A stretch of DNA of 63,995 bases, filler included, from Sanchytrium tribonematis (taxonomy: Eukaryota), in assembly GCA_018985235.1 (NCBI GenBank). It is 8 parts of 8 records of this genome, joined end to end, with 100 filler letters (N's around TTAATTAATTAA, not from the genome) between each part and the next. Parts side by side here need not be neighbours in the genome. Positions count along the whole stretch, not along the records: positions 5,450 to 32,037 come from JADGIG010000060.1; 7 more parts are not named here. The stretch is one strand, 5' to 3'. The translations under genes were made by a program, and so were the position numbers. The notes under the pieces were generated by a model that was not told the origin of the DNA, made no database searches, and worked only from the letters and a program-made list of their open reading frames with translations. Positions 6,243 through 37,575 of this stretch are shown here, piece after piece; positions within the stretch are counted from its first letter, which is position 1; each line of letters begins with the position of its first letter.

Positions 6243-8213
6243 TTATTGAATACAAATTGGATGCGAATGTCCATTTCTGATTCCAAATTTAAAGAAATTT
6301 AAAATCGATACAATGTTATGCTTTCCTTCCTGTTTAGCCAAATCAAATACGGTTTTTTCTCCATTATTTTTAGCATTTAAAGTGCTCATTGCCATATTCA
6401 TTTCCCCCTTTACAATAGGGTGATCAAAACAGCATTTGCGAATCATCGGATTTAAATTACTTGCTTGTGTTGTTTCCAAACATCCAAAAATGTACCGAAG
6501 CATTATTGTGAATATTTCTTCATTGTTAATAGCATTCATTAATGCAGTATATCCATGCGTATTTTGAATTTGAAAATATTCGATATCTGGCTTTAAATCC
6601 AAGAAATACGTTATACATTCCAAATTCTCAGCACTTGCGCAAAAATGCATTACAGTATAGCCACAGTCATCCGCAATAAATGGAACTAGAGTACCGCCGG
6701 ATATTCTGGATCTAATCCATTGATTGATTATTGAATTTTTGTCGAAATCAGATAATTCTTGAATCATAAACATGTTTGAAATAGCAGGCTGAAGTCTGTG
6801 TTGTTTTGATTTTATCTGTAACCATTTGTTTCCATCAGATTCTCTGGCTATGTTTGTTTTTGAAAGTAATAGATGAATTTTGTGATACGTCTTGAAATGA
6901 ACTCCATTTTGAATGGCTGTATTGTCAAATGCCACTTCCCCAAAACGAGTTAAAAATTTCGCCAAAACTTTAATGGAAGGAAATTCAGTCATTATTAATT
7001 GGAGATATGACCCAACTATGCGACTTGTAATCTTTTTGTCAATATCATAATTCATAATGAGCAACGAAACTTTGTCAATTCCCATTATTAATGAATGATG
7101 TAAAATTGTCATTTCATTATTGTCCTGTGCATTTATCATTGGTTTTTTATTATATTCAAAATATAATTTCAACACTTTGAAGGTGTGGTTTGGATCTTCT
7201 ATACCGGCTATGGCCTTGTGCATCGGCGTTTGTAAATTTGAATTAATTGGATTTAAATTCAAATTTGGCTGAACCAGCAAGTGGCCCATGAATTCGAGAT
7301 TGCGATTTTGCATTGCCAAATGTAGAATAGTGTCTTTTTCATTATTTGCAACATTTAAATCTGGCCTAAATTGAATTATAAATTGAAAAGAAAAGGAAAT
7401 AATTTCTAAATTATTTTCAAAAGTTAACAGGTGAAGTGGTGTATCTCCCTGGTGATTCTGTGCATTAATTTGATTTTCTTCTACTATATCATAAACTATT
7501 TGAAGTGCATATGGGTTTCTAATTGCTGCATGAATTAAATTATTCCCATTTTCATCCAATTGGTGGAAATTGTAGCGTCTTTGTTGCTGTATTTCAATAA
7601 ACGTCGGTAAATAATCCGGGTAATTTACAATACAGTCATGAATAATGGGATAATTGTCAAATGCGGCAATCCATTTACGATTTGGATGCTCAATTGCCTT
7701 TTTCCAAATTTCTCTATAATTAAATCCAAATTGCAATAGCCATTTCAAATCTTCTAATTTGTTATTTTTTACCAAATAATCATAATATTCATTATTAAAT
7801 TGCCCAAGTCTTATAAAATCTGTGAGTTCTGGACTCAGTTGATATTCGAGAAATTTCAGAGTAGCACGAGAGAATGGCAATTTTTCATCAGAATCTTTCA
7901 GTTTAACGTTTGCATGTAAAGTAAGCAGCAAATAAACAGCAGGCAAATTTGATTTCTCTGCAGCCATATGTAATGCACTGGTTTCTAAATTGTCACGCAC
8001 CCTCACAAGACCATTGACCTCTGGGTGTTTATCGAATACCAGTTTTAATATTTCTCTGGATTCACCCATTGTCGCAAATACCACATCTTCTGCAGTTGGA
8101 TTTGTTGGAGTTTGTAAGATTTCTCTAACTCGCTCTACATCTTGTTGTTCGATGCAATCAGTCAAAGTCTGACAATTGGCAAATATTACATTCCATAGCA
8201 AGTACATCAACAT
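6243..8213 (-). CDS. Ankyrin-repeat protein with short signal-like N-terminus
   Basis: Multiple GDTPLH/DTILH/QTPMH/GYTALM repeats; N-terminus MLMYLLWNVIFANC. Confidence 0.88.
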   Translation of the reverse strand: MLMYLLWNVIFANCQTLTDCIEQQDVERVREILQTPTNPTAEDVVFATMGESREILKLVFDKHPEVNGLVRVRDNLETSALHMAAEKSNLPAVYLLLTLHANVKLKDSDEKLPFSRATLKFLEYQLSPELTDFIRLGQFNNEYYDYLVKNNKLEDLKWLLQFGFNYREIWKKAIEHPNRKWIAAFDNYPIIHDCIVNYPDYLPTFIEIQQQRRYNFHQLDENGNNLIHAAIRNPYALQIVYDIVEENQINAQNHQGDTPLHLLTFENNLEIISFSFQFIIQFRPDLNVANNEKDTILHLAMQNRNLEFMGHLLVQPNLNLNPINSNLQTPMHKAIAGIEDPNHTFKVLKLYFEYNKKPMINAQDNNEMTILHHSLIMGIDKVSLLIMNYDIDKKITSRIVGSYLQLIMTEFPSIKVLAKFLTRFGEVAFDNTAIQNGVHFKTYHKIHLLLSKTNIARESDGNKWLQIKSKQHRLQPAISNMFMIQELSDFDKNSIINQWIRSRISGGTLVPFIADDCGYTVMHFCASAENLECITYFLDLKPDIEYFQIQNTHGYTALMNAINNEEIFTIMLRYIFGCLETTQASNLNPMIRKCCFDHPIVKGEMNMAMSTLNAKNNGEKTVFDLAKQEGKHNIVSILNFFKFGIRNGHSHPICIQ

Positions 8214-8349
8214 GTCAATCGTGTTTGACCCTGTTCCTTTTAACAGGATTGCTGTACAATCTTGTGTTTAATTTTTACCAATGAAATGGTCAGACAAAAA
8301 CACAACATCGTACAATCTGCTACATCATTTGTTATCACTATTTATTGAT

Positions 8350-10246
8350 TCAATATCGCATACGCAACAATCCCTTTGCAATATCCAATGCTTGTTTTGA
8401 ACCAGGATGCTGACATTGTTTTATTGCAAATATCTTCTCTTTACTTTTATTTTTAGCATTTATTGCAGCCAATGCCATTTCAACATGATCATGATACTGT
8501 ATACACCCTACAATATAGTTTAATAATACAACAAGTACATCTGCATGATCACAACTCATCATTAATGCCGTATTTCGTTGATTATTTTGAATTTGCAATT
8601 GGGGATGAAATTGAATAAAATATTGAATACATTCTAAATTGCCCAATTGTGCACATAAATGCATGACATTGTTGTTTTCAGTGTCATGTGCAAATATATC
8701 CAGTGATTGTTCAATAAATCGTTGTTGCATCCAAATTTGTACGATTTGAAATGCATTTAGAGATGGATAGCGTTGAGTTATTTGAATGTGTTGTAGATAG
8801 TAGTAGATTTTATGATAAGATGCATCATTTGCAGCAATTGAAATGGCATTAACATCCAATGGCAAATCGGGGAAATGTTTGATAAATTTTGAGAATAATT
8901 GAAATGGAAATGGATGTGTGATCAATTGCTGTAGATATGAGACTCCATTTCCATTTAAGATGGTTGGATTCAATGGATAATTTAATAATATGTTGATTAC
9001 ATTCATATAACCATGTTTTATTGCCAAATGCAATACCGTGTCACCTGATTGATCTGGTGTATTCAAATCTGGATGTGGGTTGTATTTAAGATAGATTTGG
9101 ATGGATTCCATAATGAGATGCTCTAGCTTACCAGGTTCTGAAACTGCTAAATGCAAAGGTGTTTGTTGATGGTGATTTAATTTGGTTAATAGTCGTGAAT
9201 CGACACGATGAATGATTTGAAGCAATTCATTTGGCTTTGAAATGGCTACATGTACTAATGTATTGCCATTTACATCCAATTGGTTAAAATTGTAGTTTGG
9301 AATTCTTTGGATTAATTCAGGCAAATAAGACGGGAGTCGCTTTATGCAAACATGCATAATTGGGGAATTATAAAAGGATCTAAGCCATTTGGGATCTGGT
9401 TGGTCCATTGCTTTGATCCAATTACCTTGAAATGTAAAACCAAATTGCAATAAATATTGCAAATCAAGTAATTTATCATTGGCTACTAAACATGTGTGCC
9501 ACTCCAATTCATTAAATATCAAATATTTAATAATCATTCCATTATCAATCCATATTCTATCTTATTTAGCGTATTAATGAGTATTTGTTACTGTTCTAGT
9601 CAATTCTTGAGCAATACGGGTCTAAAATCCATTCCTGTGAGTGTAGCCACATTAATTCGACGATCTAATGTCTTATTTGGTGTATTTTATGGCGTAGTCA
9701 TTTTTAATGAGTCATTGGATATTTACAGTATATGTGGCTGTTTGTGCATTATCGGTGTCGTATTGATATTGGCATATGAACAATATACCCATCAACGAGC
9801 TGCATTTTCATTGATATAGGCTATTCTGGAATAGGGACTGGTGTCTTTTTTACCCATATTCTTAAAAATTCCAATTTTGTATAGTCTTGTGGGATCTTGC
9901 CATGGTTGTCTTGAATGGTAGTAGATGCGCCATTTTGGAGTAGTAGAAAGACGGCTACAATCCTAGTATTTCGTACTGCGAGGTGTAATGGTGTACCAGG
10001 GTGTTTTTTGAAATGTTTTAATTGATGGATATTGATATCAATTCGGGGAACATTCAATACCATATCCAATATAGTGATGGATTCACCTTGTGCTGCATAA
10101 TGTAATGCGGCATATCCATTTGAACCCAATTGGTTGATATCCAAATCTGTATTTTGCAAGTAGGATGAAACCTGAGTCGGATTCTGTTGAATGATGCATT
10201 CATTTAAAGAATTGCAAGATGCGAATGATAATGGGATGAGCCACAT
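8350..10246 (-). pseudogene. Ankyrin-repeat paralog of 6243-8213 interrupted by a 304-bp insertion
   Basis: ORFs 9821-10246 and 8350-9537 align with consecutive parts of 6243-8213. Removing 304 bp between two CCATATTCT repeats restores EFLRIWIDNGMIIKY in frame. Confidence 0.8.
9559..9853 (+). pseudogene. Captured fragment of an EamA/DMT-family transporter C-terminus
   Basis: GLKSIPVSVATLIRRSNVLFGVFYGVVIFNESLDIYSICGCLCIIG is a typical EamA C-terminal pattern; no start codon. Confidence 0.7.
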
Positions 10247-11283: not shown

Positions 11284-11359
11284 TTTTTTTTTAATAATAA
11301 TAGTTTATTTGATTGATGGGAGCTGTCAACACAGCATTTCCATCAATTTGATGAGTCAG

Positions 11360-14300
11360 CTAAGCTGACGAATGATCCTGATCAGCACCAGTTTCTTGAA
11401 TTATTTTTTCGCCAAATGTGGATTTTTTTAATTTCTTCAATAAATCAAATATTTCTGTCTCACTGCCATTTTTAAATGTGTTATAGATGTTGCTTGTTGC
11501 CAGATCTGTGTTTTCTACTAGGCATACTTCCTCAAAATGTGCAGTTGAATCAAATGGCTGCTCACAATACTCACAAATAGCTCGATATTCATCATTTCCT
11601 CGGAATGGCATTCGTCCCATTAAAAACAATACCCCCAATTTTAGTGTACTGTGGGAATATGTGTAATTGTATCGATTTTTCTTCAGTAAAATTAGCAAAT
11701 TTGAAGTTGTTTTTAATTTTGAGCCCCTATTAGCCCTGTTTTCATCCCACATGTCTTGTAATCTCTCTTCAACTGTTAATTGTAGTTCTTCAAGAGTATT
11801 GGCACTTAGTGGGGTGTAGCCATCCACAGTTTCACAGAAAGAAGTGTTAAATTTCAAGATTTCAATGTAATTTAGAGGAGTTCGCGGGTCAGATTGTAAC
11901 TGGTAAATGCAATTTCTCAATTGGGTCTCCAATGATATTCTATTTTTATTGTATAATTCATTGGAATTTAAAAATTTGCACAAGTATTCATGAATAAGCC
12001 TTGAGTGGCGAAAGACACCGTTGACAGCTCCTTTTCTAATTGATTCTAGTCTTTCTAGATATTTGACATCCCATAACGGTAGCCCGTAGCTCAAAATGGA
12101 TTCAATTACCCCTTTCACAAATAATGGTTGTCCATGAAATAGTTTATTTGCTTCTTCAGTATGGATTTTCTTTTGCACTGATGCGATTTGTTTATTTTTA
12201 TGAACCAGCTCGGCATCGTAGTCAATCCCATCACAATTGATGTGGATTCCCAGATATTTAATAAATTTTAAAGATTCTAATTCTTGATTATCTACCACAA
12301 ATGAGTATTCAGAAGATGCGCAAATTTGGTATTTATTAGGATTCGCCTTGAAATTATGGTCTTTGAGTTTACTAGTGATATTGTTGAGAATCAGTTGCAA
12401 ATAATTTGGATTATTTGCGCACAAGAATATATCATCTGCATACAAGCAGATGGCTATTTTGCTGTCATCGTAGTCTAGTTCTGAAAGAATTCGATCAATT
12501 ATAAATGAAAATAAGAGTGGTGAAAGTGTTCCACCTTGTGGAACACCCTGTTTCATTTCAATGGTTTGTTTTAATGAATCGCGCTTTAAGTAAAGAGATT
12601 GATTGACAATCAGAGATCTTAGTGCATTACAGTCAATAGGAGTAAATAAATTTACTACATTTTGTTCAATATCATCCCAATTGATATGATCAAATGCTGA
12701 AGATAAATCCAAAGATGCTAAATAAACATCTCCATTTCTTTTAAATTGTTTTATGGTATTTAATACGAAGTGCAACTGTGTCAAAGTGCTTCTAGATTGG
12801 CAGAATCCATGTTGACGGAAACTGGGGATTAAAATATACTTTAATTTAAAATAATACAAAATTTTTTCATATATTTTACGAACTGTAGGTAGGAGAGAGA
12901 TGGGTCTATAGAATTTCGGGTCACTATGGGATCCCTTGTTTTTATAAATCTCACAGATAGATGATTTGCACCAAGATTCTGGTAAATCGCCGTGAGTGTA
13001 GGCTTGTTGGAAAAGATGCTTCAAGACTTTGATGCCATTTGAAGGCAAGAACTTTATTGATGTATTTGGGAGTATACCACCAGCTGATTTCCTTGTATTT
13101 AATCTTCTTGCTTCCTTTCTAATTTTTTCACAACTGAAAAGTGATTTGGATTCTTGATAGGCTCGATTTATTTGTTCTTCTGAAGTGTGTTTCTTATTCC
13201 AACTATGATTTGGTGCATCAAAGTGATTTTTTTGATATGCAATCATTTCTTCTTCATTGCAGAATATGCGATTGGGATTAAAATTTGAATTTTTTATTTT
13301 GCAAAGTTTGTGGTAGGCATTTGTAGAGTCTTTATTAATTTCCTCCAACACTTCCAAGTGATTTTGATACACCTGATTCTCCATTTCCGAGTTGTATTTC
13401 TTGCGACATTGTTTAATTTCTTTTAACAAAATGATTCTGCGTCTCCTGGATTTGACTCGTGAGTAAGTCTGCTGCTTTCTTTTGATGTATTTGTTAATTG
13501 AATCCAAATTACTAGTAAGAATACGACACTCCGGGAAATTTGGGATTATTCCAAGTGTTTGTTTGTCAGCCGTGAGCACGCAACTTGTCAAGAAATTGTC
13601 AATTTCATTTACATTTATTGAATCTAACAGATTGTCATTATATTTCTTTATTAAATTCTGTAGCATTGATTGATATTGTTTCCTGAATTTGGGTATTTTC
13701 AATTTTTTCCAATTTATCTTCTCTAATGAAAGCATCATTTTATCAGTTTCTAATTCAATAATAGATGGCCAATGATCTGAGGTGTATTTGTCAGGTCTTT
13801 GTATAGTTAACAAGGACTTAACTGCATGTTGGAGGCTAGAATGGGACCAAAAGTGGTCCAATATTTTATTTGTATTTACCATTGTGCTGGTTGTTACATT
13901 ATGAAATACATACGATTTATTCAATAAATAACACTTCAATTGTTTGCTGAATAGATCTGATTTGGAATCTATTTCCAAGATGTTGAAATTCAGGTCACCA
14001 CAAATAAATGCATTGTGGGAAATTGCCTCATTGAGAATAGATTTGATATATTCTATATTTCGAGTTCTAATGTAATGAAATGGAATGTATGTGAATGCAA
14101 TATTTTGCCTATTTATCTTAAAAATATAACAATTGTCAAAAAATTTAATTTTATTCACACTTGTTACGGAATTATGAATGAACAAGTGCTGCTTATGGTG
14201 TAAATTTGAGTTTGGAAGATCCCATTGAGTATAATTATTGATATGTGGCAGATATTTATAGTTTTTAGACTCTTGTAACAGCAGAATGTGTGGCTCAAGT

Positions 14301-14584
14301 TCCAATAAATTGTTTAATTCTTGTTGATTCAGAACTCTTTTGTATCCACGGCAATTCCATTGCATGATTCTTAATTTGTTAGTGAATGTGCATGTGTAAT
14401 TGGACTCTCCATCTAAAGATTCAGGGATATTATAATTTATTTCTGATGGTGGATCGGAAATTTGTGTAAATAAAGTTGAAGAAAGTGTATTTCGAGCCAC
14501 TTTGTTTTGTCTAGTAGTGTTAATTGCTTGTCTTTTCAATGGAACCATGTCATTTGGTTCAGACTTCAAAATCTTTGTGGGCAT
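11360..14584 (-). CDS. LINE APE endonuclease-reverse transcriptase, uninterrupted 1074-aa frame
   Basis: All APE and RT motifs present, including YADD, plus the C-terminal CCHC. Confidence 0.93.
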   Translation of the reverse strand: MPTKILKSEPNDMVPLKRQAINTTRQNKVARNTLSSTLFTQISDPPSEINYNIPESLDGESNYTCTFTNKLRIMQWNCRGYKRVLNQQELNNLLELEPHILLLQESKNYKYLPHINNYTQWDLPNSNLHHKQHLFIHNSVTSVNKIKFFDNCYIFKINRQNIAFTYIPFHYIRTRNIEYIKSILNEAISHNAFICGDLNFNILEIDSKSDLFSKQLKCYLLNKSYVFHNVTTSTMVNTNKILDHFWSHSSLQHAVKSLLTIQRPDKYTSDHWPSIIELETDKMMLSLEKINWKKLKIPKFRKQYQSMLQNLIKKYNDNLLDSINVNEIDNFLTSCVLTADKQTLGIIPNFPECRILTSNLDSINKYIKRKQQTYSRVKSRRRRIILLKEIKQCRKKYNSEMENQVYQNHLEVLEEINKDSTNAYHKLCKIKNSNFNPNRIFCNEEEMIAYQKNHFDAPNHSWNKKHTSEEQINRAYQESKSLFSCEKIRKEARRLNTRKSAGGILPNTSIKFLPSNGIKVLKHLFQQAYTHGDLPESWCKSSICEIYKNKGSHSDPKFYRPISLLPTVRKIYEKILYYFKLKYILIPSFRQHGFCQSRSTLTQLHFVLNTIKQFKRNGDVYLASLDLSSAFDHINWDDIEQNVVNLFTPIDCNALRSLIVNQSLYLKRDSLKQTIEMKQGVPQGGTLSPLLFSFIIDRILSELDYDDSKIAICLYADDIFLCANNPNYLQLILNNITSKLKDHNFKANPNKYQICASSEYSFVVDNQELESLKFIKYLGIHINCDGIDYDAELVHKNKQIASVQKKIHTEEANKLFHGQPLFVKGVIESILSYGLPLWDVKYLERLESIRKGAVNGVFRHSRLIHEYLCKFLNSNELYNKNRISLETQLRNCIYQLQSDPRTPLNYIEILKFNTSFCETVDGYTPLSANTLEELQLTVEERLQDMWDENRANRGSKLKTTSNLLILLKKNRYNYTYSHSTLKLGVLFLMGRMPFRGNDEYRAICEYCEQPFDSTAHFEEVCLVENTDLATSNIYNTFKNGSETEIFDLLKKLKKSTFGEKIIQETGADQDHSSA

Positions 14585-16741
14585 CGAATTATTTTCAAAG
14601 TCATTTTTACGTTTATGGTTTTGTATTTGACTGCCACCAAGTTAATTTTTCTGAAGACGATTTGGTACGAGTTTGAATTTTCGAAAATTGAAATTTGGAA
14701 ATTGATCTCTGATTATTTGAAAAAGATGCATTTTGTTATATGGACATGCAAACTCATAGTGTTGTAAGTCATTATGGTTATTTAGAATGGTTAAATGGGC
14801 TGTGGTCCCGTCATGGAGCTCATGATATCTTGAGATGGACAGATTTAAAAATTGGCTGTTTATTGAATGACTAATAGAATAGATATTGAGTTTAAAAGGA
14901 AATGATGCAGATCTTAGTAATGATTGAGTATTAGGTAAAAGACATTGGCGGAGTGTGTGGCAGAGTATTGGCAAATCTGGCGTATTTGGATATTTCAATG
15001 AAATAGAGTTCGAATACATTTGAGTCATAATTTGGGTATCATGGTAAGCAGCATTAGCGCATGAATGATGATTGTTATTATGGATCTCAGTAAAATGAAA
15101 ATGACTTATATATTTGAGAAGAGAACAGATGCGAGTGTTCTCATTATCATAGAATGAATAAGAAATTATAGGTATATTATCTTTCGGCATCATTTCAAGG
15201 TGTTTATCATCATGCTGAGATTTCAAATTTGTAAATTGATGCAGTACTACTTGAATAAATAGAATTGAAAAGAAATCAAATTTATTTAATCTTCCAAGGT
15301 CATGCCAGTCTAAATGAGTACCAAATACCAAGATAGGCTTAATAGTTGTAATATGCAACATTTTGGCAATCTTTGCAGTAAAATCTTCATCCAATTCAAT
15401 GAATTCTCCGTCATCTGTGATTCCTTGATAAATAATATCCAAATCTCTAAATTCTGGTCCGTAGATTTTAACGTATTCCTCTTTAAGGGCACTGACTAGA
15501 TTTTCATCTTTGGGGAACTGAAATGATAGTGTCAAATCCTGTCCTGATTCGTCAGAAATGGTTAAATCAAATGATCTGGTCTCAGTTGAGTGATGATTGG
15601 ACTTCAATTGGCTAAATACTTTAGTATATCTAGATTTGTTAGATTCAAGGTCATGGGTGGCATTTTGGATACCAATTTGCTCAATATTGGCCATTAAACG
15701 TGTTAACGACTTGATTGCTGCCATTTTGATGATGGAATTGGTTCCCAAATTCTCACTCATTCCAAATGATGGGATCTGATCACTCTTTAATACCTACTTT
15801 GGGACCACGGATTTGAAGTAGTAATCTAATTGTGTTGCATTGCAACGATTAAATCCTTGTTCAGATACATATGCATTGGAATTAACCAATCTACTAGGAC
15901 TAGCAATGAGAGCAATAAATACGCATTTATATCGCACATCTAAATCTTCAGCAAGATGAATGAACTCACAAACTTGATGGTTGAGGCAATAATTTCTCAC
16001 TGTTTTGGCGGATTTCAATGCAGAGATGGGTCCAAAGAATACATTCAAATGGTAAGCATGAGTTAATTTGTAATTGGAATGGATAATTGATTGGATAGCT
16101 GGCATGTCTAAATCATAAATATCTGTGTTGGGATTTGGTGAATTCACGTGTTTGACGGAGAAAGTAGAGAAGTTTGTGGCTTGCAAATCGAGTGTAATAT
16201 GAAAGTAATTTGGGTCACTGACCAAATAACATGGTAAATTGGCGTCATTTTCTTCAATTTGCTCACAATATGATTTGATAAGCTCTAGATACTCCTTGTA
16301 AATCCCTGATTGTAGATGCTTCATAGGTGCAGTAATGTGGTTTCTTAAAGCCACAGTATCCATTTTTTCGGCTCGTAGACAGAACTTAGGGATTGTTAAT
16401 TCACGATTAAATTGTAAAGGTTTCCTATCCATGAAATAGTCGTGGGAACACCAGAATTCAATATGTTGTGCATATTTCTGTGAACCAATCGCTGCTGTGG
16501 TTCCTTGGGCTACTGCAGGGCAGGAAAGAGTGTGATTGGGGGTCAAATGTTTTGTTAATTTTATAATGGTCAATAAATGTCCTCTTGAAGTGTCTTTAAT
16601 AATGTTATCAAGATCTGCTATCTTTTGTGCATCTCTGGAGCCAGATTGGAATGCTTTTAAGCTTCCTTTTAACTGAGATGACATATCAGAAAGACCTTGC
16701 AAGAGTTTATAAAGTGCGAGCGCAATTGACATGTGAGCAAA

Positions 16742-16862
16742 TTGAATATGTTTATTGGTGTGAAGGCGCCATTGGCAAACTTGAATATGTTTATTGGTGT
16801 GAAGGCGCCATTGGCAAACTTGAATATGTTTATTGGTGTGAAGGCGCCATTGGCAAACTTGA
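16742..16862. repeat. Three perfect 39-bp tandem repeats at the 5' end of LINE copy 1
   Basis: Unit ttgaatatgtttattggtgtgaaggcgccattggcaaac x3. Confidence 0.97.
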
Positions 16863-18136
16863 TCTTTTGAAATGCAATCTGAGTGTTTTTTTAGTAAAGT
16901 GGAATGTTCAAGTTTCTCATTTTCACAAGTTAGTATGTAATAGATTTTAGTGGATGGAAGCCAATCTGTGTAGAAAATAAAGTGTTTTATTGAGAAAGAT
17001 GCATGAAATTCTGTTGCTTTATGAGCAGAAATAGCACATTCATTTGATAACAAGCGAATTATGCGAGTTGTGGTCCAGAAAGTCAAATTGGCAAAAAAAA
17101 TTAAAATTTTAAAAATTTTGCAGATCAAACTGGCAACTCCTCGTTTCATCAAATGACATCTTAAAAAGTCAATTGTATTTTTTTCAAATAGATTTTGAAG
17201 GGTTGAAGTATCAATTTTGTCCCATTGAACTGCAGCAATTTCATTTATAACTAGTTAATTGGGAATTGGAGATACAAGAGCCAATTATTGCCAGATTTTT
17301 AAATATTTGAGGGTATAATCCACACAGACTCCATTTGATTGAGTAATTAAGCGTCTAGCCACTTTAAAATTTCAACTAATTATTCAATTTACTCTCTTCA
17401 GTAGCCAAAAGTTATACAATACCAAGGAGATGAAAAAAATGAAAAAGCAACAAAGATCAGAGAATCTTATGAAAAACTGCTCTCTTGATACGCGATTAGA
17501 ATTAATAAATAATTATTTTAATAGTAGTAATTCCTGTTTGAAAATTATATTTGGAGTGATATTTTTATATTTTACAAATATAAATCTATTTTTTTAAAAT
17601 ATAAATAATTTCTAAAATCAGTTTAAATGAGTATAAGAATCTGGCAAGTTGATGGAAATGGCTTTGAAGAAAAACGCTTCCCTTTTATAAAAATTATATT
17701 TTTTCCATAACTTTATTTATTGTCCGGGTAAACTCACAGCTGATGGCCAATCACGTTACCCTTTTGAAACAATAAAATTTTATCTGTGAAGGTTCTATTT
17801 GGATACAAAAAACCCGACTCCCAGGACTATGTTGCACGTAATCAAAAAGAGACGCTCTTAGACCATCTAAAATAACGAAAAACTACGAAACTGGGCAATC
17901 TTTTTATTATGGTGTAATGTGAACAATGGGTGGGTTTTACAATCAAAAAAACTAGGATCAAAATGAGCTGAACTCGACTCTGTTGGTTTTACCTTTGATT
18001 TTTCAATTGCATCCCTGCACATATCGGGATCGAGAAAAAATTGAAATTTGATTCTGTTACAACATTCCTAAAAATAGATAAATAAACTCCTTTTCAGGTG
18101 TTTTGTGCACATTTGTTTGGCAAAATACATTATACA

Positions 18137-18328: not shown

Positions 18329-21110
18329 TAGAAGGCAATAAAGAAACTGAACAGACCACAGATCAGAGTAGACAACACACATACTGATGGTATGTGTTCT
18401 GTGGGATTCTAGCACAATACCTTCTTCATCATATACTTCTAAAGCATATGTGTATATTGGCATCACCACTTCTCGATAAAATTGCTTATAAGCACCTTGA
18501 AGTGACTCAAACGTGCGTGTCCATTTAATCTGCCCAATTGCAAAATTGACTTTGTCAATGCGTGACTTGACATCTACTGCATAATCAATATTATCCCATT
18601 TTAAATAAACACTCAGATACTTCATATTATTTGCTTTGGGACTGATATTTCATTAGAAAGATTTAAATGCGTAATTTTTGAATCGGATGTGACGTATTGA
18701 AATTTCTGACTATTAGCAATAAATCCATGATATTTAAGCTTTAATAATATAAGATTACTCAATAATTGTGCATTTTGGTAGCTATTGCACACCAATAGCA
18801 AGTCATCGGCGTAGATGTGGATTGAAAAATTATTAGAATTTGAGATGGATAGTAAAATGCGATCCATCACGTAGGCAAACAACAGAAAGCTTAGTGAGCC
18901 ACCCTATGGAGTGCTTCTCATGAATGGAATGGCTGTTTGATTAGAATCAAAAGGGAATTAAATTGATTGTTTTGTGATAATGATTTTTAATAGATTCAAA
19001 TAGTGTGATTATATATGAGGTTTGAGTAATTCATTAAGATCCTTATGCAGAATACAATCACAGGCAGATGGGAATGTTTGAATTTCTTAAACTGAATAGA
19101 TCTGGCTGCTGCAGCTGCGCTGTTTGCAGAATCCATGTTGGCGAATGCTAGGATGTATTCTATCGAGTAGTAACATATTTGTTGGAAAATTTTATATGTG
19201 CGTGATAATAGGTTGATGGGCCTATATCTGCTAGTATCCCTTTCATTTCCGCTTTTAAACACGTCAAAAGTAACTGAGAGGAGCCAGGCCGATGGGAAAT
19301 TGCATTCAAGATAACATTGACTAAAGAAACTTAGAAATAATTCATATCCGATTTCTGGTAGATTTTTGAGAAGAATAGCCGGTATGGCATCACCAGACAC
19401 TTTGTTGCTGTTTGAATGCTTAAATGCATTGGTTATACGTTCAGTCGTGAAGACCTCTCTTGCAACGGCATTCACTAGATGACTTAATTGAAGGATTTCT
19501 TCTGGCCAATCAGAAGAATTTGGGGAGAAATGAGTCAGTTGGTACTGAATAGCTCTCTCAAGATCACAATTAAAAGAGTGATTAGGTCTCTTTGACTGTC
19601 GTAGTCTGCATAAATCGACAAAGGCGCTACTTTGGTTTTTATTAATATTCTCAAGATATTTTTTCTTTTTGCTCCTTGGATCTCTGATTTTTGATTCCTT
19701 CCTGATGCAGTCAATTTGGTGTCTAATGTTATCTCTTCGTGTAACTATGATGTTTTTCTTCTTCAGTTTGCGCTTCAATTTATTTTTACGAATATTTAGA
19801 ATTTGAATAACATTATCAAAATCATTCATTTGCGAGTTATCCAGGATATTGCTTATACCAAGTATTTTGGTTGCATGTTTAGTACAGACCTTCAATAAGT
19901 AGCTCCATTTATCATTCACAGAAATATTTTCATATGCAATCTTATTTGTCTCAAATTCATGCTTTAATTTTTCTTGTAGGGATAGGCGAAGGATGGGATC
20001 ATTCTTTAATTTACTCCATCTGATATTACGTAGAATTGCAATTGGGGAGTCAAGAGAATATGTAAATTTGATGGGGAAATGGTCAGAGCTAGTATCTTCT
20101 TCTGTTAATACCTCAACATTGCTAGTGCGATCTAGTTTGGATTGGTGGACAAGTAGAACATCATTTACATTAATACCATTTCTCATGGTGCTTATATTGG
20201 GAGAATTTCTACACGAATATGCAAAATTACTTATAAATGTCTCAAATGATCTTCCTACCCTATTTGACCCATTTTGAATCATGGACATGTGCATGTTGGC
20301 ATCACCAACAACAATACTTTTTAATTCAAATGCTACTTGGAGTTCTGAATGGACCAAAGAAAGATTCCCCATAATTCTAGGGGGAATATAAAGAAAGGAG
20401 AAGACATGTCCATCAATTTTAACTGTATGACAATGCTTTGTATTATGATTCATTTGAGTGATGTTATTAATGCCAATTTTGATGTATATGCATTGTCTGT
20501 CCACCTCGTGGAGGAATTTGAATTTAAATTGTGAATATCCATTTAATCGAATATCCTTCTTCGTATCTAATCTATATTCATTCAAATGTAAGATATCTGG
20601 TCTGTGCATACCTATTAGAGATCTCAACTCTGTTTTTAGATTTCCTTGCCTGACTCCTCTACAATTGTAGCTTATGACGCAAAAATCATGAATTTGATCT
20701 GCCACACTGTGATCAGTGAGTAGATCACCATTTCCACCTCTAAGACGTACATCAAAGTCATCATCAATCAATTTTATCCCAGAATAGATCTTTGACTCAC
20801 TTCAATCCACATTTTCGATTCTTGAGTCAATGAAGTGCTTTACATCCTTTAAATTACATTGTTTAAAGTAGTAGAATGGGTATGAGTTGTTGTTATCCAT
20901 TTTAATCCATAATAAACTCTGTTTTGGCTTATTTGATTTTAGATACAAAATTGGTTGAATCACTGTTTTGGATGGTTCTGGTCTGCAGATTCTTTTGTTG
21001 TACACTGTATTAGCAGCAGGTGTTGCCATGGGACGCTTTAGAGAAGAGGAAACCAATGAATCAGCATTTATTGAATTAACTTTGATTCGCCTCTTCTCCA
21101 AAATTAAAGT
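18329..21110 (-). mobile_element. Degenerate LINE copy 2 (Ubl-RLRGG-APE-RT) with frameshifts and stops
   Basis: VRLRGG then ISYNCRG, LHLNE, GDANM, SDHFP, YRPINLL; IYADDL and KYL in the downstream fragments. Confidence 0.88.
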
Positions 21111-21318
21111 GAACTACCGACAAGGGGAGCAGAGTACTCGACTGTGAGTTCAATAACCCGTCCTGTAGTGATTCTTGCCAAGTGGCACTTGATCTGAGGT
21201 CTGTTGATGTCACATGTCAGTGATCCGTGAATAAATTTAATTGGTCAGTGATTACACAATAGTTTCACCTGCTTCGATTATCTTTCACGTCGATCGCAAG
21301 TAGGGTGAAGCGTGAAGT

Positions 21319-22440
21319 GTGAAGCGTGAAAGTGATTCTGACGAAAATATTGACTTGTTACTGCTTTATTTATATTTTAAGGCACCCAAGAAGATCCCAA
21401 GAAAGCCACGATCATTTTACCAACCAATTCCTAGAGCATACATTTGGTATCATTTACAAGTAGCTGTTTTACATGATAGACACTATAGATTCTTTTTTCG
21501 TATGACTAAATTGCAATACGAATCCCTTTTAAATATTTGCATGCAAAGCGATCATCATTATTTACTAAATTCCCCAGTCGCATTTTCGAAAAAATTACAC
21601 ATCTATTTATACTTTGTTGGGAATAATCCATATAATACAGAGATGGTAGATCGCTTTGGCGTAGGATCACCACTCACTTATGTATTGGAAGTTGCCAATT
21701 TATTGAATGAATCACTTTATAACAATTTCGTAAAATGGCCAGATTTGACAGAAAAAGTAGCCATAAAACAACAATTTGAACAATATTGTGGTTTTAAAAA
21801 TATAATTGGATGTATAGATGGAACCCATGTGGGGATATCTGGTATTGGCAAATTCAGAAATGGATATACAACAAGAAAGAGTGTCTACGCAATTAACGTG
21901 ACATTTGTGTGTGATTATAATAAACAAATAAGATATAGTATAATTGGCTGTCCAGGTGCATATCACGACAATCGCGTATTTGAATTATGTGATTTGCACA
22001 ACAATGAATCACAATATTTTGATGGAAATGATGTCATGTTGGGAGATTCTGCATACAAGGGATCCAATAATGTGGTTGTGCCTTATACAAGTCCATCAGT
22101 AAAAGAGAATGTCAGTTTTAATTATTTACACGCCAAAGCACGTGTAAAAGTTGAAAATACGATTGGATTAAACAAGGGAAAATTCAAGGTGATGGGAACA
22201 CAAATTAGAATCAAATCAATTAGAAAAATAGTGATTATCATCAAATCAATTACAGTGGTGCATAATTTTATCATTCAATACAGTTTGAGAAACAATACAG
22301 AAGATGTTTGGGAGGAGGATGAATTACATGAAAATGATTTGCAAGTTGTAGAGCAATATCCAGAGCATGCAGCCATAAATTATAGATTTAATGTATCAGC
22401 ATTTGAAAGAAAAGAGATTATGAAGAGGACAAATGAATAA
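21319..22440 (+). mobile_element. PIF/Harbinger DDE transposase (HARBI1-like)
   Basis: IIGCIDGTHV, GAYHDNRVF, LGDSAY, FNYLHAKARVKVENTIG motifs; convergent with a Myb/SANT partner gene. Start codon unclear. Confidence 0.92.
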
Positions 22441-29110: not shown

Positions 29111-30789
29111 ATAATGGTAGTGGCTAAGTAAATCTATCAGATAATTATCTGGTTGCGTGTCATCATGCCCTATAACATGCAAAAATGAAGTATTTTCAAC
29201 ATATCACGGCATTCACTAATAATATCAAGCCCGTATATATTCCATTTTGGGATCAAATTGTCGTTATACTGATTAAATGATAAAACGGCACTTGTATTAT
29301 CGGAGAGCACGGTAATTGGATCATAATTTTGTGGCCATTTCTTTTTAATACACCTTAATACATCCAATTCCAAGTATCTCTGCACGAGTTGAGTCATCTG
29401 GCTTCAACTTAGTCAGATTATAGATTTTGTGAAATATTGTCATGTAAAGAAGCATCCAAAAATGCATGAATCGTGTTATCATCCATATTATTCTGATAAT
29501 TGGCAATAGTTTGAAACCATACTGTAGGGAAATCAATGCTGGAATGTTCAATCAATTTGGTACATTTTTAGAGAGACCCAAATGAAATATATTTAAACGA
29601 AATCCATTTAAATGAATAAATAAAGCGACTCCGACTCAGCAGACATTCCATAATGTAAACCATGTTATAAAAATGTATTTGTAGCCATTATTTTGATTAA
29701 TCTTCATTTGAATGAGCTGGATGTGGGTTGATTTATATGAATAAATAGTGCAGAACCATTATCTTCGACGTTTTCGTCAATGGATTATGGTTAAACTCTC
29801 GACGTGATCGTCAATGAGTTTTTGACAATTGTGGAAGCTAATTGGATAATTTAAATTTGTGTCCAATTTGAGTAAGTTTTGATTGGGTATCTTTTAATTT
29901 TAGTTTACCCGCTATTTTTTGGTAATGACACGTTCAAAAGAAACCCATAAAAGTAGCAATGCAATTAAAAACTTATCTTCCAAAGCTCCTAGTAAACATT
30001 ATTCCGGTAAATCTTTCAAAGAAGCACCATCAAACAATAATTTAAGATTGCAACCCATCGATAAATTAACTCGAACTCAATTGCGAAGAATGCAAAATGC
30101 ATTAAAGAAAAAGCAAGAGCAATCTTTTCAGATCATGTAAAAAGCATTTGAGAAAATAAATGAAGACGTTGGTATTGACTTGGATTCGGACGAAAAACAA
30201 GTTCTTACAGATGCGATTAAAGTAAAAAAGAAACGAATTAGAACCATTATGCAGTCACAACACGTCTCGAAAGTTGAGTTTACTTTGAAGAAGTGTCATG
30301 GAATGAAAATGACATCAAATGGTAGACTATCAGATCTAGACTTTTATTGTTTGGTTTCATGGAATGAAAAATTACTTCCTACCCCAGACTTCGTAAGATT
30401 GCAAGAGCAATCAAACCTCTTACAACAAATAACTATTTAATTTGACACTCGAAAACAAACAAAGAAATCCAATTAGATTTGATTCTTCATATAATTTATC
30501 AACTATAAACTGTTTTTATACTGTTATAAATCGTTAAAAAATGCCATTTGGATTGATAGATTATTGTTCTCAGGAGCTGTAACGCAGATTTTGATGTATC
30601 CACATTTGATTTATACAAATCTTCTGCCGTGTACTGTAGTCTGAATATTTGTAAAGGGATAGCACATAAAACGAGTAATCCGAATTTACTCAGGGGATTG
30701 TTTCATCTAAAATGGCTCATGTTCCACAAAACTCATTTTTATGGTCAAATTCTAATTGCAGAATGTGTTGCTGATTTAAAATTATAAAA

Positions 30790-31100
30790 GAGAAAATCAA
30801 TGGCAACAACCCCCTTGAGGTACACCTTACTTGTGTTTTATTGGAATATCGTTTTAAATATAAAGATTGAATCACAATCAAACATCTCTATGCATTTAAA
30901 TCCCATAGTTTAAAATTATTTTGAGTGATACAATTCCCATTTTCTCCATAAGATTTAAACAAAATGCAGCTGTGTCAATGTTCCACGACTAAATAATGTG
31001 ACATATGATTCTTGATGAATCCTTCATTAAGAAATTTGATTGAACTATTGCTAAGTGGTGATAGAGATGAAAGAATTAATTTATTTTTGTAATTTACTCC
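30790..31100 (-). mobile_element. Degenerate LINE RT remnant
   Basis: Minus-strand GVPQGG near 30810-30827; LSNSSIKFL resembles LPNTSIKFL of copy 1. Confidence 0.45.
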
Positions 31101-32486
31101 ATATCTTCCTTGATCTCTTCAGCCCTATACAGATTAAGCAGTATTTACTTGACCAGACCAGAGTTTCTTCAAATAATTGACTATTACTATAGCCATAACA
31201 GAATTTTTTGTCACGGGAATGCGTCTGTTTGAGGCGATCCTTTCAGCTGATTCAAATTGCATTGTCAGTATAAATTGGTAATTTATCACTCAAAACATGT
31301 TCTAAAGTAGCAATAGTGCTTGTGGACGTTACAAGGATAGTACGGCTGAACGCCTGACCACTAAAATTGCCAAAAACGATTAATCAGTATAAGATATAAA
31401 ATAATCAATCTTATCAATTACATCAAATTTAAACAATATGTTTTGAGCATTTTCACGTGCAACAATTTCTCATGAACTCTATGACATACATTGTCAAAAG
31501 CATTCCGGGTCTCGCCATATTTTACGATCGAAATTAAAATGAAAGATAGAAGAGAAAAAAGAAGGAAAAGATGTATAAGCATTTCAAATTTCCCATTAGA
31601 ACAACTGTGCAAAGGAAAGTTGTTGTCAATTAATTTTGTTACAAACAGATACATTGAACGTAGCAGGTAATGTGCATATTGTATGTGCTGTGTATCTGCT
31701 TTTCAAATTTTTATTAGTTATTCCAGGTAGTTGTCAGGACATCATTTTGCTGTAAATTTGTTAAAAAAAATTTCTTTGATAATTTAAGCTTATCGATATA
31801 AAAATTATTACAGGCTTCATTAGCTACAACTTCAAAACCATCCAATATACAACTATGTTACACACTATTGATCTACACTCAGATGAAACACCCCAACGAG
31901 ATGCTTCATGGAAATTCTGAAGATGCAAATCAAATGCGCGAGATTCTCTCTAGTAACGATAAACCTATCAAACAAAGATTAAGAAAGCCTAAAAGTAATA
32001 AATTTGAGCATATTATGGTAATGAATGAGTCCTTTGGNNNNNNNNNNNNNNNNNNNNNNNNNNNNNNNNNNNNNNNNNNNNTTAATTAATTAANNNNNNN
32101 NNNNNNNNNNNNNNNNNNNNNNNNNNNNNNNNNNNNNTTGTTGGATAATGGATAACAATTGTTTGCGCTTCATGGAGATTCTCCTATTACACAAGCAAAT
32201 TGACAATATGTCCACCCTTTCATAGTACCAATTGATAAGAAATAGATAGGTAAACAGCGCAATTTGTAGAATTTAGTCAATTGACAGGAGAACCTAGGAG
32301 ATTTTTAAGTTTTAGTCAATTCTACTAGTCTCTGTGCAACTTAATGCTTTTAAAGTATCGCACATTATATCATGAAATATAATCTCTAAAATGTTTTCAT
32401 TCATTCGTATTCAAGCACCAAAGAAACCTAAAAATCTGAAATTTATTTAAAACCAGGAGATTTGTTTCCCAAATGCCAACATCTTC

Positions 32487-33324: not shown

Positions 33325-33493
33325 ACTCATACCATTCTCTTTGAATTAATTTAAGTATTAGTGAGTGTTTGAAAGACCTAAGTTACTCTAGAATGTCAAA
33401 GTAACAAACAGATCACTTATTCACGTGTCTCTCCTTTCACTAAAATGACGTCATTTATACTTTAAAATCGAAGATCCTCCCACATCTTTTAGA

Positions 33494-37475: not shown

Positions 37476-37575
37476 NNNNNNNNNNNNNNNNNNNNNNNNN
37501 NNNNNNNNNNNNNNNNNNNTTAATTAATTAANNNNNNNNNNNNNNNNNNNNNNNNNNNNNNNNNNNNNNNNNNNN

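What the first reader, a model, noticed from the sequence alone, without database searches (positions are those of the whole stretch)
20680..20930. LINE family with a ubiquitin-like domain ending in RLRGG directly before the endonuclease
Seen: copy 2 reads LLWIKMDNNNSYPFYYFKQCNLKDVKHFIDSRIENVD*SESKIYSGIKLIDDDFDVRLRGG, then APE (ISYNCRG) about 20 aa later. Known: this tracks ubiquitin (QIFVKTLTGKTITLEV...IENVKAKI...RLIFAGKQLED...LRLRGG). Deubiquitinases cleave after LRGG, and some other LINEs carry 2A-like skipping peptides at this same position. Inference: these elements borrow host DUBs to release APE-RT from a polyprotein, a processing strategy I do not recall being described for this type of element.
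Basis: partly seen in the sequence, partly recalled or inferred. Interest (0 to 1): 0.78.

Follow-up and report, generated by a model that had tools for sequence, protein, structure and literature searches.

The report
Jumping gene with ubiquitin-like cut site
A small family of LINE retrotransposons, with relatives labelled as a sanchytrid fungus, has a predicted ubiquitin-fold domain ending in an invariant Gly-Gly just before its DNA-cutting enzyme; host deubiquitinases likely cut there, which would be a way of processing LINE proteins that I did not find described.

Summary
On the minus strand, copy 2 reads ...VRLRGG (20733-20747), then 19 residues, then the APE motif ISYNCRG (20655-20675).

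- **Not chance.** A second window copy (KLRGG, 62560-62574) has the same junction. So does every relative that keeps sequence upstream of APE: 10 of 10 database proteins carry a ~70-residue domain ending in [RK]xxGG.
- **Conservation.** GG is the only invariant pair in the domain. It is as conserved as the APE catalytic residues.
- **Fold.** AlphaFold models of two members give a beta-grasp fold whose best PDB matches are ubiquitin and Ubls (TM 0.70-0.77; Z up to 10.1).
- **Weak sequence similarity.** A family profile hits mono-ubiquitin only at E 0.0025-0.04. Single sequences and Pfam find nothing.
- **Linker.** The stretch after GG is variable (18-87 residues), predicted disordered, and never starts with Pro.
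- **Upstream region.** It is long and in frame, which fits a polyprotein.

Cleavage by host deubiquitinases is the best reading, but it is untested. Copy 2 itself is dead: in-frame TGA, 11-column gap in the Ubl, broken RT. Nine full-text searches on this point found no prior description. The scan earlier noted Ubls at the other end of CRE-like elements in other genomes.

The parts
18386..21113 (-). Copy 2: a degenerate LINE copy (Ubl, APE, broken RT). It lacks the N-terminal region, and the C-terminal region is lost or unrecognisable.
   Evidence: tblastn of P0005 residues 174-1081 maps to 20981-18386 in three frames. ORFs are and Pfam APE and RT hits. The open frame runs upstream to a stop at 21113.
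20733..20918 (-). Copy 2 ubiquitin-like segment (SLLWIK...VRLRGG). The GG codons are at 20733-20738. An 11-column gap against its relatives precedes the tail.
   Evidence: alignment A1. A family HMM that includes this row scores it 60.9 bits. A profile built without it and its close relatives does not detect it.
20802..20804 (-). In-frame TGA stop inside the copy 2 Ubl.
20676..20732 (-). Nineteen-residue linker between GG and the APE motif (NGDLLTDHSVADQIHDFCV). The first residue after GG is Asn.
20064..20678 (-). Copy 2 AP-endonuclease (APE) domain.
   Evidence: Pfam Exo_endo_phos_2 (E 1.5e-8, residues 238-348) and Exo_endo_phos (residues 147-278) of the translation that starts at 21113.
18622..18903 (-). 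Copy 2 reverse-transcriptase fragment, with the YADD motif, in a different frame from the APE.
   Evidence: Pfam RVT_1, E 2.1e-10.
60827..63993 (-). Copy 3: a second, related element, 88-93% identical to P0003. It runs off the window end and most of the RT core is missing.
   Evidence: tblastn of P0003 and P0005.
62950..63993 (-). Copy 3 upstream open frame of 347 codons, open at the window end. It holds the long N-terminal region and the conserved N-domain, in frame with what follows.
   Evidence: Translation P0040. Residues 2-177 match P0008 residues 257-432 (BLASTP E 1e-5). The N-domain matches P0003 residues 19-155.
62738..62953 (-). Copy 3 Ubl, first unit (RLVFIKLPNEST...LLLKL), cut short by the duplication.
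   Evidence: Family HMM 52.7 bits, positions 2-73.
62554..62730 (-). Copy 3 Ubl, duplicated C-terminal part ending in LKLRGG (KLRGG at 62560-62574), followed by AQGEHL... and the APE.
   Evidence: Family HMM 35.6 bits, positions 20-78.
62569..62898 (.). Tandem duplication of 169 bp (2.0 copies, 96% matches) inside the copy 3 Ubl. Because 169 is not a multiple of 3, it shifts the frame.
   Evidence: Tandem Repeats Finder.
11360..14641 (-). Copy 1: an intact 1093-codon APE-RT ORF of a sister LINE lineage (49% identical to P0014). It has an A9 tail at 11284-11292. No recognisable Ubl was found upstream in this copy.
   Evidence: The Ubl HMM finds nothing there. Its relative P0014 does carry the Ubl, ending in RLLGG.

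Best explanation
The segment is a predicted ubiquitin-fold (beta-grasp) domain built into the single long reading frame of an APE-type LINE, and its invariant C-terminal Gly-Gly is likely a cleavage site for host deubiquitinases or Ubl-specific proteases.

As reconstructed from intact relatives, the frame reads: a long N-terminal region of unknown fold (up to about 630 residues in P0008), a conserved ~100-residue N-domain, a disordered spacer, the ~70-residue Ubl ending in [RK]xxGG, a variable linker of 18-87 residues, then APE, RT and a C-terminal Cys/His motif.

Inferred mechanism: as the polyprotein is made, a host enzyme that trims ubiquitin or Ubl precursors would cut after GG. This would separate the upstream protein, which may stand in for ORF1p, from the APE-RT enzyme in equal amounts. 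Bicistronic LINEs reach a similar end with two ORFs, and some single-ORF LINEs with a 2A skipping peptide.

Shown here: the sequence, its position, conservation of GG and of the basic residue, and the domain order. Predicted: the fold and the disorder after GG. Inferred: the cleavage, the enzyme, and any ORF1-like role of the upstream part. The two window copies that carry the Ubl are both inactive relics.
For: **Recurrence**
- A HMMER search of 1.84 billion representatives with P0002 gave 25 hits.
- Ten of these keep at least 40 residues upstream of APE, and all 10 have exactly one [RK]xxGG there.
- Eleven are fragments that start inside or after APE.
- Four distant hits (E 7e-7 to 3e-4) start at APE and have no Ubl.
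- The two window copies add RLRGG and KLRGG.

**Conservation**
- In the 11-row Ubl alignment, the only invariant columns are the two glycines.
- In the whole-protein alignment, the only invariant columns are Met1, the GG pair and four APE positions.

**Fold**
- AlphaFold2 on the P0003 Ubl gave pLDDT 85.7 and pTM 0.70 with strand-strand-helix-strand-strand-strand order.
- Foldseek against the PDB gave 212 matches at E<=0.001. The listed top matches are almost all ubiquitin, with TM 0.70-0.77 over 74-78 columns.
- A separate AlphaFold job modelled a second member, P0019, using an alignment of largely the same proteins. Its residues 218-292 match Ubl folds at Z 8-10.1, including ISG15, ubiquitin, FAT10, SUMO and Fubi.

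**Sequence**
- The family profile A1 aligns end to end with ubiquitin (positions 6-77 against ubiquitin 3-77), GG on GG. Mono-ubiquitin chains score E 0.004-0.04.
- The subfamily profile A5 scores E 0.0025-0.05. Nearly all listed hits are ubiquitin or Ubls.

**Features expected of a processing site**
- The linker after GG varies from 18 to 87 residues.
- It is modelled as disordered from GG itself: P0019 residues 291-313 have pLDDT below 50, and GG is 291-292.
- The residue after GG is N, A, S, F or T and never Pro in 12 distinct junctions. That Pro blocks most deubiquitinases is recalled knowledge.
- The basic residue five positions back matches ubiquitin Arg72 in the profile alignment.

**Polyprotein context**
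- P0008 has about 630 residues upstream of the Ubl in the same ORF.
- Window copy 3 has 347 open codons upstream in frame, homologous to that region.

**Precedents**
- 2A peptides occupy the same N-terminal position in other APE LINEs (PMC3708506 and PMC3894237, passages).
- Cytopathogenic pestiviruses use an inserted host ubiquitin that cellular ubiquitin C-terminal hydrolases cut to release NS3 (PMC8310069, passages).
Against: - No cleavage was observed; there are no protein or RNA data. One DNA run and no RNA run hold the stretch.
- Sequence similarity to ubiquitin is weak. Pfam finds no ubiquitin family in the 4 window translations or in 10 of 10 relatives.
- phmmer of the copy 2, copy 3 and P0003 Ubls against the PDB finds no ubiquitin.
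- A profile built from the 8 xLGG-type rows does not detect the window's own Ubls (copy 2 scores -2.2 bits, i-E 1.7; copy 3 is not listed). Their link to the rest therefore rests on position, continuous BLAST alignments, the predicted fold and the GG.
- Both AlphaFold jobs used shallow, mixed alignments (11 and 10 rows).
- The tail outside GG is not ubiquitin-like in most members (QLGG, GCGG, LPGG). From recalled knowledge, many ubiquitin-specific deubiquitinases need Leu73 and Arg74, so a generic deubiquitinase may not accept these tails.
- P0005 and P0014 have only about 200 residues before the Ubl, so the long upstream region is not shown to be universal.
- Window copy 1 shows no recognisable Ubl.
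Confidence: 0.55

Rival explanations
1. The Ubl is a permanent, uncleaved domain of the LINE protein. It would act as an interaction module, as in Rad23, Dsk2, BAG6 or parkin-type Ubl domains, docking the protein on the proteasome, Cdc48/p97, a ubiquitin-binding host factor or chromatin. The GG would be kept only as a flexible hinge.
For: Integral Ubl domains are among the structural matches: BAG6/BAT3 at Z 8.9, Dsk2 at Z 8.6 and hHR23B at Z 8.2, and BAG6 in the profile hits. The tail residues between the basic residue and GG are not ubiquitin-like in most members. Nothing here shows cleavage.
Against: From recalled knowledge, integral Ubl domains generally do not keep a C-terminal GG. Here GG is the only invariant pair in a domain that is otherwise 9-26% identical, and it is as conserved as the APE active-site columns. 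It lies exactly at the fold boundary, followed by a length-variable linker predicted to be disordered, and Pro never follows it.
Confidence: 0.25
2. The site is cut, but by a protease the element itself encodes in its uncharacterised N-terminal region, in the way viral papain-like or OTU proteases cut after GG, rather than by host enzymes.
For: Up to about 630 residues upstream of the Ubl have no assigned fold or family, so a divergent protease cannot be excluded.
Against: No protease family was found by Pfam in 10 of 10 relatives or by phmmer of P0008 against the PDB. P0005 (1260 aa) and P0014 (1302 aa) read through to the C-terminal Cys/His motif with only about 200 residues before the Ubl, mostly the N-domain. 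That leaves little room for a protease.
Confidence: 0.07
3. Cleavage occurs, but its purpose is to set the N-terminal residue of APE-RT, an N-degron made by the ubiquitin-fusion route. This would tune the enzyme's half-life rather than separate two functional proteins.
For: Residues after GG include Asn (copy 2, P0002) and Phe (P0007, P0008). These are destabilising in the N-degron pathway (recalled knowledge).
Against: The other 8 of 12 junctions expose Ala, Ser or Thr, so no single class of N-terminal residue is conserved. The long conserved upstream region argues that the upstream product matters as well.
Confidence: 0.05
4. The resemblance is a chance or decay artefact of one dead copy.
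For: Copy 2 is a pseudogene with an in-frame stop and a deletion in this very segment. Its own sequence has no significant match to ubiquitin.
Against: The same domain and GG are present in 10 of 10 relatives with upstream sequence, including P0005 (1260 aa) and P0014 (1302 aa), which read through to the C-terminal Cys/His motif. The fold prediction is confident.
Confidence: 0.01

Closest known systems
APE-type LINEs with 2A 'ribosome-skipping' peptides at the N-terminus of ORF2p (L1Tc, Ingi, some CR1, Crack and others; PMC3708506 and PMC3894237, passages read)
   Same: A short module placed just upstream of APE in a mostly single-ORF element, proposed to split or regulate the translation product.
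   Different: No 2A motif is present: D.E.NPGP, NPGP and NPG are absent from 12 of 12 family proteins, and D.E.NPGP and NPGP from all six window frames. Here the module is a folded ~70-residue Ubl, and the split would be post-translational proteolysis by a host enzyme rather than a ribosomal skip. Neither paper mentions ubiquitin (0 occurrences).
Cellular ubiquitin and Ubl fusion precursors (polyubiquitin, ubiquitin-eS31, ubiquitin-eL40, Fubi-eS30)
   Same: A beta-grasp domain ending in GG is fused in frame to a downstream protein, and host deubiquitinases remove it. eS31 and eL40 fusions are among the profile hits and Fubi is a structural match at Z 7.9. As I recall it, Fubi's tail is R-M-L-G-G, which fits the family's [RK]xLGG pattern.
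   Different: Identity to ubiquitin is only about 20%. The Ubl is internal, with a long protein upstream. A linker of 18-87 residues, not the mature protein itself, follows GG. Cleavage is untested.
Cytopathogenic pestiviruses with captured host ubiquitin upstream of NS3 (PMC8310069, passages read)
   Same: A replicating genetic element uses a ubiquitin moiety inside its polyprotein as a processing signal cut by cellular ubiquitin C-terminal hydrolases, releasing the downstream enzyme.
   Different: In pestiviruses these are recent captures of near-identical host ubiquitin in individual strains. Here it is an old, highly diverged, family-wide domain of a retrotransposon.
CRE-like (restriction-like-endonuclease) non-LTR elements with Ubl domains after the endonuclease
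   Same: Non-LTR retrotransposons that have fused ubiquitin-like domains to their main ORF.
   Different: They belong to a different endonuclease class and carry the Ubl at the opposite end of the protein (C-terminal). No sequence overlap with this family was found in the scan index.
Ordinary bicistronic APE LINEs (L1, Tad1 and similar)
   Same: APE, then RT, then a C-terminal Cys/His motif, with a short 3' UTR ending in an A-run (copy 1).
   Different: The upstream protein is in the same frame, and a Ubl-GG joins it to APE-RT. The APE is very divergent (only 25 hits at E<=0.001 in 1.84 billion representatives). The clade was not assigned: the RT's PDB matches at E<=0.01 are R2, group II intron and retron RTs, and no LINE-1 ORF2 chain is among them.

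Membership tests
Ubiquitin-like (beta-grasp) superfamily, ubiquitin-type modifiers | Beta-grasp fold (strand-strand-helix-strand-strand-strand) | tested here: met
   This rests on prediction only. The P0003 Ubl model has pLDDT 85.7, and its Foldseek top matches are ubiquitin at TM 0.70-0.77 and E 3e-5. P0019 residues 218-292 match Ubl folds at Z 8-10.1.
Ubiquitin-like (beta-grasp) superfamily, ubiquitin-type modifiers | Significant sequence match to ubiquitin family models | tested here: inconclusive
   Family profiles hit mono-ubiquitin at E 0.0025-0.05 (17-21 bits), end to end for A1. Pfam finds no ubiquitin family in the 4 window translations or in 10 of 10 relatives. Single-sequence phmmer finds no ubiquitin.
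Ubiquitin-like (beta-grasp) superfamily, ubiquitin-type modifiers | C-terminal Gly-Gly at the end of the fold | tested here: met
   GG forms the only invariant columns in the 11-row alignment. It is present in 10 of 10 relatives with upstream sequence and in both window copies.
Ubiquitin-like (beta-grasp) superfamily, ubiquitin-type modifiers | Precursor processing after GG by a deubiquitinase or Ubl protease | not testable with these tools
   This needs a cleavage assay.
APE-type non-LTR retrotransposon (LINE) | AP-endonuclease domain followed by a reverse transcriptase in one ORF | tested here: met
   Copy 2 has Exo_endo_phos_2 (E 1.5e-8) and RVT_1 (E 2.1e-10). Copy 1 has both domains in one 1093-codon ORF. 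P0005 and P0014 carry RVT_1 at E 1e-33 and 6e-29.
APE-type non-LTR retrotransposon (LINE) | 3' A-rich tail and no LTRs | tested here: met
   Copy 1 has a stop codon, about 70 nt of UTR, and then A9 at 11284-11292. Copies 2 and 3 are too decayed to test. Target-site duplications were not examined.
APE-type non-LTR retrotransposon (LINE) | Assignment to a named clade (L1, Tad1, I, CR1 and so on) by RT phylogeny | not tested
   No reference RT set was available. The only indication is that the PDB matches of P0005 at E<=0.01 are R2, group II intron and retron RTs, with no LINE-1 ORF2 chain listed.
2A-containing LINEs | D(V/I)ExNPGP motif upstream of APE | tested here: not met
   D.E.NPGP, NPGP and NPG are absent from 12 of 12 family proteins, and D.E.NPGP and NPGP from the six-frame translation of the window.
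Captured host ubiquitin (as in pestivirus insertions or ribosomal fusions) | Near-identity to host ubiquitin | tested here: not met
   Identity to ubiquitin in the structural alignments is 14-24%.

The most novel reading that the evidence does not exclude
The element encodes its own conjugatable modifier. After the host cuts at GG, the upstream (ORF1-like) protein is left carrying a ubiquitin-fold domain with a free [RK]xxGG tail. The host E1-E2 machinery then activates that tail and attaches the whole retrotransposon protein covalently to lysines on host or element targets, such as chromatin or the APE-RT itself. That would make it a retrotransposon-borne ubiquitin-like conjugation tag, not just a cleavage signal.
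Probability: 0.07. Interest if true: 0.92.

Novelty: new variant of a known kind. Interest (0 to 1): 0.68.

Why it matters
How LINEs make and balance their two protein activities is a standing question. The known answers are two cistrons with unconventional re-initiation, or a 2A skipping peptide.

A family-wide ubiquitin-fold domain with an invariant GG at the junction suggests a third answer: a fused polyprotein trimmed by the host's own ubiquitin-precursor proteases. Cytopathogenic pestiviruses are known to reach the same solution by capturing host ubiquitin.

- It gives a simple testable prediction, GG-dependent cleavage.
- It would tie retrotransposon expression to host deubiquitinase activity.
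- With the scan's earlier notes of Ubls at the C-terminus of CRE-like elements, it suggests that non-LTR elements have recruited ubiquitin-like domains more than once.
- The diverged, compact Ubl could also be of practical interest as a cleavable fusion tag.

Tried and rejected
- **Whole genome.** None is held for this window, so copy number and full-length copies could not be surveyed.
- **Nucleotide self-comparison.** It found no DNA-level repeat of copy 2.
- **Rfam and tRNA scans of the window.** Both found nothing.
- **Metagenome contig scan with alignment A2.** Thirty-nine pattern matches, none confirmed by tblastn.
- **Word-indexed protein searches.** The search with A4 recovered only 2 of the family plus 10 distant LINEs; the six whose sequence starts at or before the APE have no Ubl upstream and the other four are fragments. 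The search with A1, set to longer proteins, returned only 6 of the training members. The word filter limits both.
- **ESM Atlas on P0008 residues 1-620.** No usable hit.
- **phmmer of P0008 against the PDB.** Nothing at E<=1.
- **hhalign of the N-domain against the Ubl profile.** Probability below 1%. The idea that the N-domain is a second beta-grasp rests only on its predicted strand and helix order and on two VIA rows that span residues 45-290 on linear polyubiquitin.
- **Copy 1 upstream region.** No match to P0008 or to the Ubl HMM. The nearby 'RLQKN*LGG' string was considered as a decayed tail and left as unproven.
- **Alignment A6 (RLRGG subfamily alone).** MAFFT misaligned it, so it was not used.
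- **Complex prediction.** Not used, because an enzyme-substrate pair with no eukaryotic deubiquitinase reference on offer is a poor use of it.
- **Clade assignment.** Not achieved.
- **Literature.** Ten full-text searches were run. Nine were aimed at a prior description and found no paper describing a ubiquitin-like domain in a LINE or other non-LTR ORF; the tenth sought the pestivirus precedent. One apparent hit, PMC8912903, only cites an unrelated Mpe1 paper. Repbase and Dfam entries, subscription journals and bioRxiv supplements were not searchable.
Full report
**What is at the coordinates.**
The finding lies on the minus strand. Reading 21113 to 18996 gives an open frame with one in-frame TGA (20802-20804).
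- LLWIK lies at 20901-20915 and RLRGG at 20733-20747.
- Nineteen linker residues follow, then ISYNCRG at 20655-20675.
- Pfam places an AP-endonuclease right after it (Exo_endo_phos_2, E 1.5e-8) and an RT fragment further down in another frame (RVT_1, E 2.1e-10).

This is "copy 2", a decayed LINE. It has the internal stop, an 11-column gap in the Ubl relative to its relatives, a broken RT, no N-terminal region, and no recognisable C-terminal region.

**Other copies in the window.**
tblastn with the copy 2 pieces finds two more elements.
- *Copy 3* (60827 to the window end, minus strand) is 34-44% identical to copy 2. It reads ...LLLKLRGG-AQGEHLISICSVADQHDRFRV-ISYNGRG, the same junction.
- Its Ubl is interrupted by a 169-bp tandem duplication (62569-62898, 96% matches) that shifts the frame.
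- *Copy 1* (11360-14641) is an intact 1093-codon APE-RT ORF of a sister lineage, about 25% identical to copy 2. It has a short UTR and an A9 tail.
- I could not recognise a Ubl upstream of copy 1, although its 49%-identical relative P0014 has one.

**Relatives elsewhere.**
No whole genome is held for the window.
- A word-indexed search gave one informative relative, P0002, 60% identical to copy 2. It reads ...IEIQARIRGG-NGDILTDYSVADQIHTFDI-ISYNCRG.
- A full HMMER search of 1.84 billion representatives with P0002 gave only 25 hits at E<=0.001, so this is a small and very divergent LINE lineage.
- Six of the hits carry the EukProt label Sanchytrium tribonematis, a sanchytrid fungus. Others come from unnamed ENA or NCBI contigs.
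- P0003 is 88-93% identical to window copy 3, so the window probably comes from the same or a closely related organism.

*How the 25 hits divide:*
- Ten keep at least 40 residues upstream of the projected APE start. All ten have exactly one [RK]xxGG there: RIRGG, KLRGG, KMLGG, RQLGG, KGCGG, RLPGG, KGLGG, RLLGG, RVLGG and RTLGG.
- Eleven are fragments that begin inside or after APE.
- Four distant ones begin directly at APE and have no such domain.

More distant LINEs retrieved with a family profile also show no Ubl where their sequence reaches the APE start.

**Conservation.**
- In the alignment of 11 Ubl segments, identity to the first row is 9-26%. The only invariant columns are the two glycines.
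- In the whole-protein alignment of 10 members, the only invariant columns are Met1, the GG pair and four APE positions.
- GG dipeptides occupy 18 of 7264 positions in these proteins, so the alignment of GG in every member is not chance.
- The residue five positions before the cut is always Arg or Lys. In the profile alignment it pairs with ubiquitin Arg72.
- The residue after GG is N, A, S, F or T and never Pro.
- The distance from GG to APE is 18 residues in five proteins and 30, 49, 59, 63 and 87 in the others.

**Is it ubiquitin-like?**
By fold prediction, yes.
- AlphaFold2 on the P0003 Ubl (the intact counterpart of window copy 3, with the 11-row alignment) gives pLDDT 85.7 and pTM 0.70, with the strand-strand-helix-strand-strand-strand order of a beta-grasp.
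- Foldseek against the PDB returns 212 matches at E<=0.001. The listed top matches are almost all ubiquitin, at TM 0.70-0.77 over essentially the whole length and about 20% identity.
- A second model, the whole 387-residue P0019, folds residues 219-290 the same way. VIA-align places residues 218-292 on Ubl folds at Z 8-10.1, including a TINCR-encoded Ubl, ISG15, ubiquitin, FAT10, SUMO and Fubi.

By sequence, the link is weak.
- The family profile aligns end to end with ubiquitin, GG on GG, but mono-ubiquitin chains score only E 0.004-0.04. The strong E-values for polyubiquitin are sums over repeats.
- A profile of the xLGG subfamily alone gives E 0.0025-0.05.
- Pfam reports no ubiquitin family for any sequence.
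- Single-sequence searches of the copy 2, copy 3 and P0003 Ubls find no ubiquitin.
- A profile built without the window's subfamily fails to detect the window's own segments.

The RLRGG subfamily is therefore tied to the rest by position, by continuous BLAST alignments that run through the Ubl into APE, by the predicted fold and by the GG. It is not tied by independent sequence statistics.

Ubiquitin's IENVKAKI helix aligns with copy 2's LKDVKHFI.

**Context in the protein.**
Relatives show the order N-domain, spacer, Ubl-GG, linker, APE, RT, C-terminal Cys/His motif.
- P0005 (1260 aa) and P0014 (1302 aa) read from about 200 residues before the Ubl through to the C-terminal motif.
- P0008 has about 630 residues before the Ubl in the same ORF.
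- Window copy 3 has 347 open codons upstream of its Ubl in frame. Its residues 2-177 match P0008 residues 257-432 (E 1e-5).
- At least some elements are therefore long polyproteins in which the Ubl-GG sits between an upstream protein and APE-RT.

In the P0019 model, the N-domain (residues 46-145, pLDDT about 73-84) is a separate folded unit, residues 146-216 are disordered, and residues 291-313, beginning at the GG, are again disordered before APE starts. The upstream region has no family or fold assignment. The hint that the N-domain is a second beta-grasp is weak.

**Mechanism.**
The features fit a processing site, not an ordinary internal Ubl domain:
- a ubiquitin fold with an invariant terminal GG;
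- a conserved basic residue at the Arg72 position;
- a disordered linker of variable length after GG;
- no Pro after GG.

The most likely reading is that host deubiquitinases or Ubl proteases cut after GG, as they do for polyubiquitin, ubiquitin-ribosomal protein fusions and Fubi-eS30. This would release APE-RT from the upstream protein.

The position matches that of 2A peptides in other APE LINEs (PMC3708506, PMC3894237). No 2A motif is present here. Cytopathogenic pestiviruses offer a viral precedent: an inserted ubiquitin is cut by cellular ubiquitin C-terminal hydrolases to free NS3 (PMC8310069).

The cleavage, the enzyme and any ORF1-like role of the upstream part are inferences. The non-ubiquitin tails of most members (QLGG, GCGG, LPGG) are a real caveat for a generic deubiquitinase.

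The main rival is an uncleaved interaction domain, which I put at about 0.25. The others are a protease encoded by the element, a purely N-degron role, and chance, which is excluded.

**Novelty.**
Nine full-text searches aimed at a prior description found no paper describing a ubiquitin-like domain in a LINE or non-LTR ORF. A tenth search sought the pestivirus precedent. The two 2A papers do not mention ubiquitin. Repbase and Dfam could not be searched.

This scan earlier noted CRE-like non-LTR elements with Ubls after the endonuclease in other genomes (not checked by me). Those are a different class with the Ubl at the opposite end, and nothing in the scan index resembles this family.

I rate this a new variant of a known kind: a LINE with a new accessory module, and a predicted processing strategy known from cells and pestiviruses but not, as far as I could find, from retrotransposons.

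**Limits.**
- There are no expression or protein data.
- The family is small: about a dozen proteins, six of them from one labelled organism.
- The alignments behind both models are shallow.
- The clade is unassigned.
- The two Ubl-bearing window copies are dead relics.

Noticed in passing
window 5350-5449, 32038-32137, 37476-37575, 42911-43010, 48339-48438, 53766-53865, 59173-59272: There are seven pairs of 44-base N runs, each pair split by 12 bases. Six of the pairs are spaced about 5.4 kb apart. They cut through ordinary genes, for example the kinase ORF that ends at 37531, and no 5.4-kb repeat underlies them. They look like masking rather than biology.
   Followed up: partly
window 21316-22440 (+): An open frame of 374 codons encodes a PIF/Harbinger-type transposase (DDE_Tnp_4, E 7e-27). 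It lies immediately beside the 5' end of LINE copy 2.
   Followed up: no
window 14642-17254 (-), upstream of copy 1: About 870 codons lie in the same frame as the intact copy 1 ORF, broken by only two stops. They include a threefold 13-residue tandem repeat (VCQWRLHTNKHIQ) and the string 'RLQKN*LGG' one codon before the ORF. There is no match to the family's N-terminal region or Ubl. It may be a diverged or replaced upstream protein.
   Followed up: partly
P0019 residues 46-145; window copy 3 about 62989-63399 (-): A conserved ~100-residue N-domain lies upstream of the Ubl in six relatives. It is predicted to fold as strand-strand-helix-strand-strand-strand-helix. Two VIA rows lay it and the Ubl together on linear polyubiquitin, but profile comparison with the Ubl shows no similarity. 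It may be a second beta-grasp.
   Followed up: partly
window 30744-30902 (-): An isolated RT fragment, 50% identical to P0014 residues 892-947. It is probably the remnant of another LINE insertion.
   Followed up: no
window 33449-37531 (+), 6243-9561 (-), 54098-57191: The host genes around the elements are a Sel1-repeat protein kinase (1360 codons), two ankyrin-repeat proteins, an amino-acid permease and a copine with C2 domains. Each gives one long intron-free open frame, although some Pfam matches are partial. G+C content is 33%.
   Followed up: no
P0005 residues 780-1007: The PDB matches of this family's RT at E<=0.01 are R2 element RTs (E 1e-12 to 2e-6) and group II intron and retron RTs. 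No LINE-1 ORF2 chain is listed, despite the APE-type architecture.
   Followed up: no
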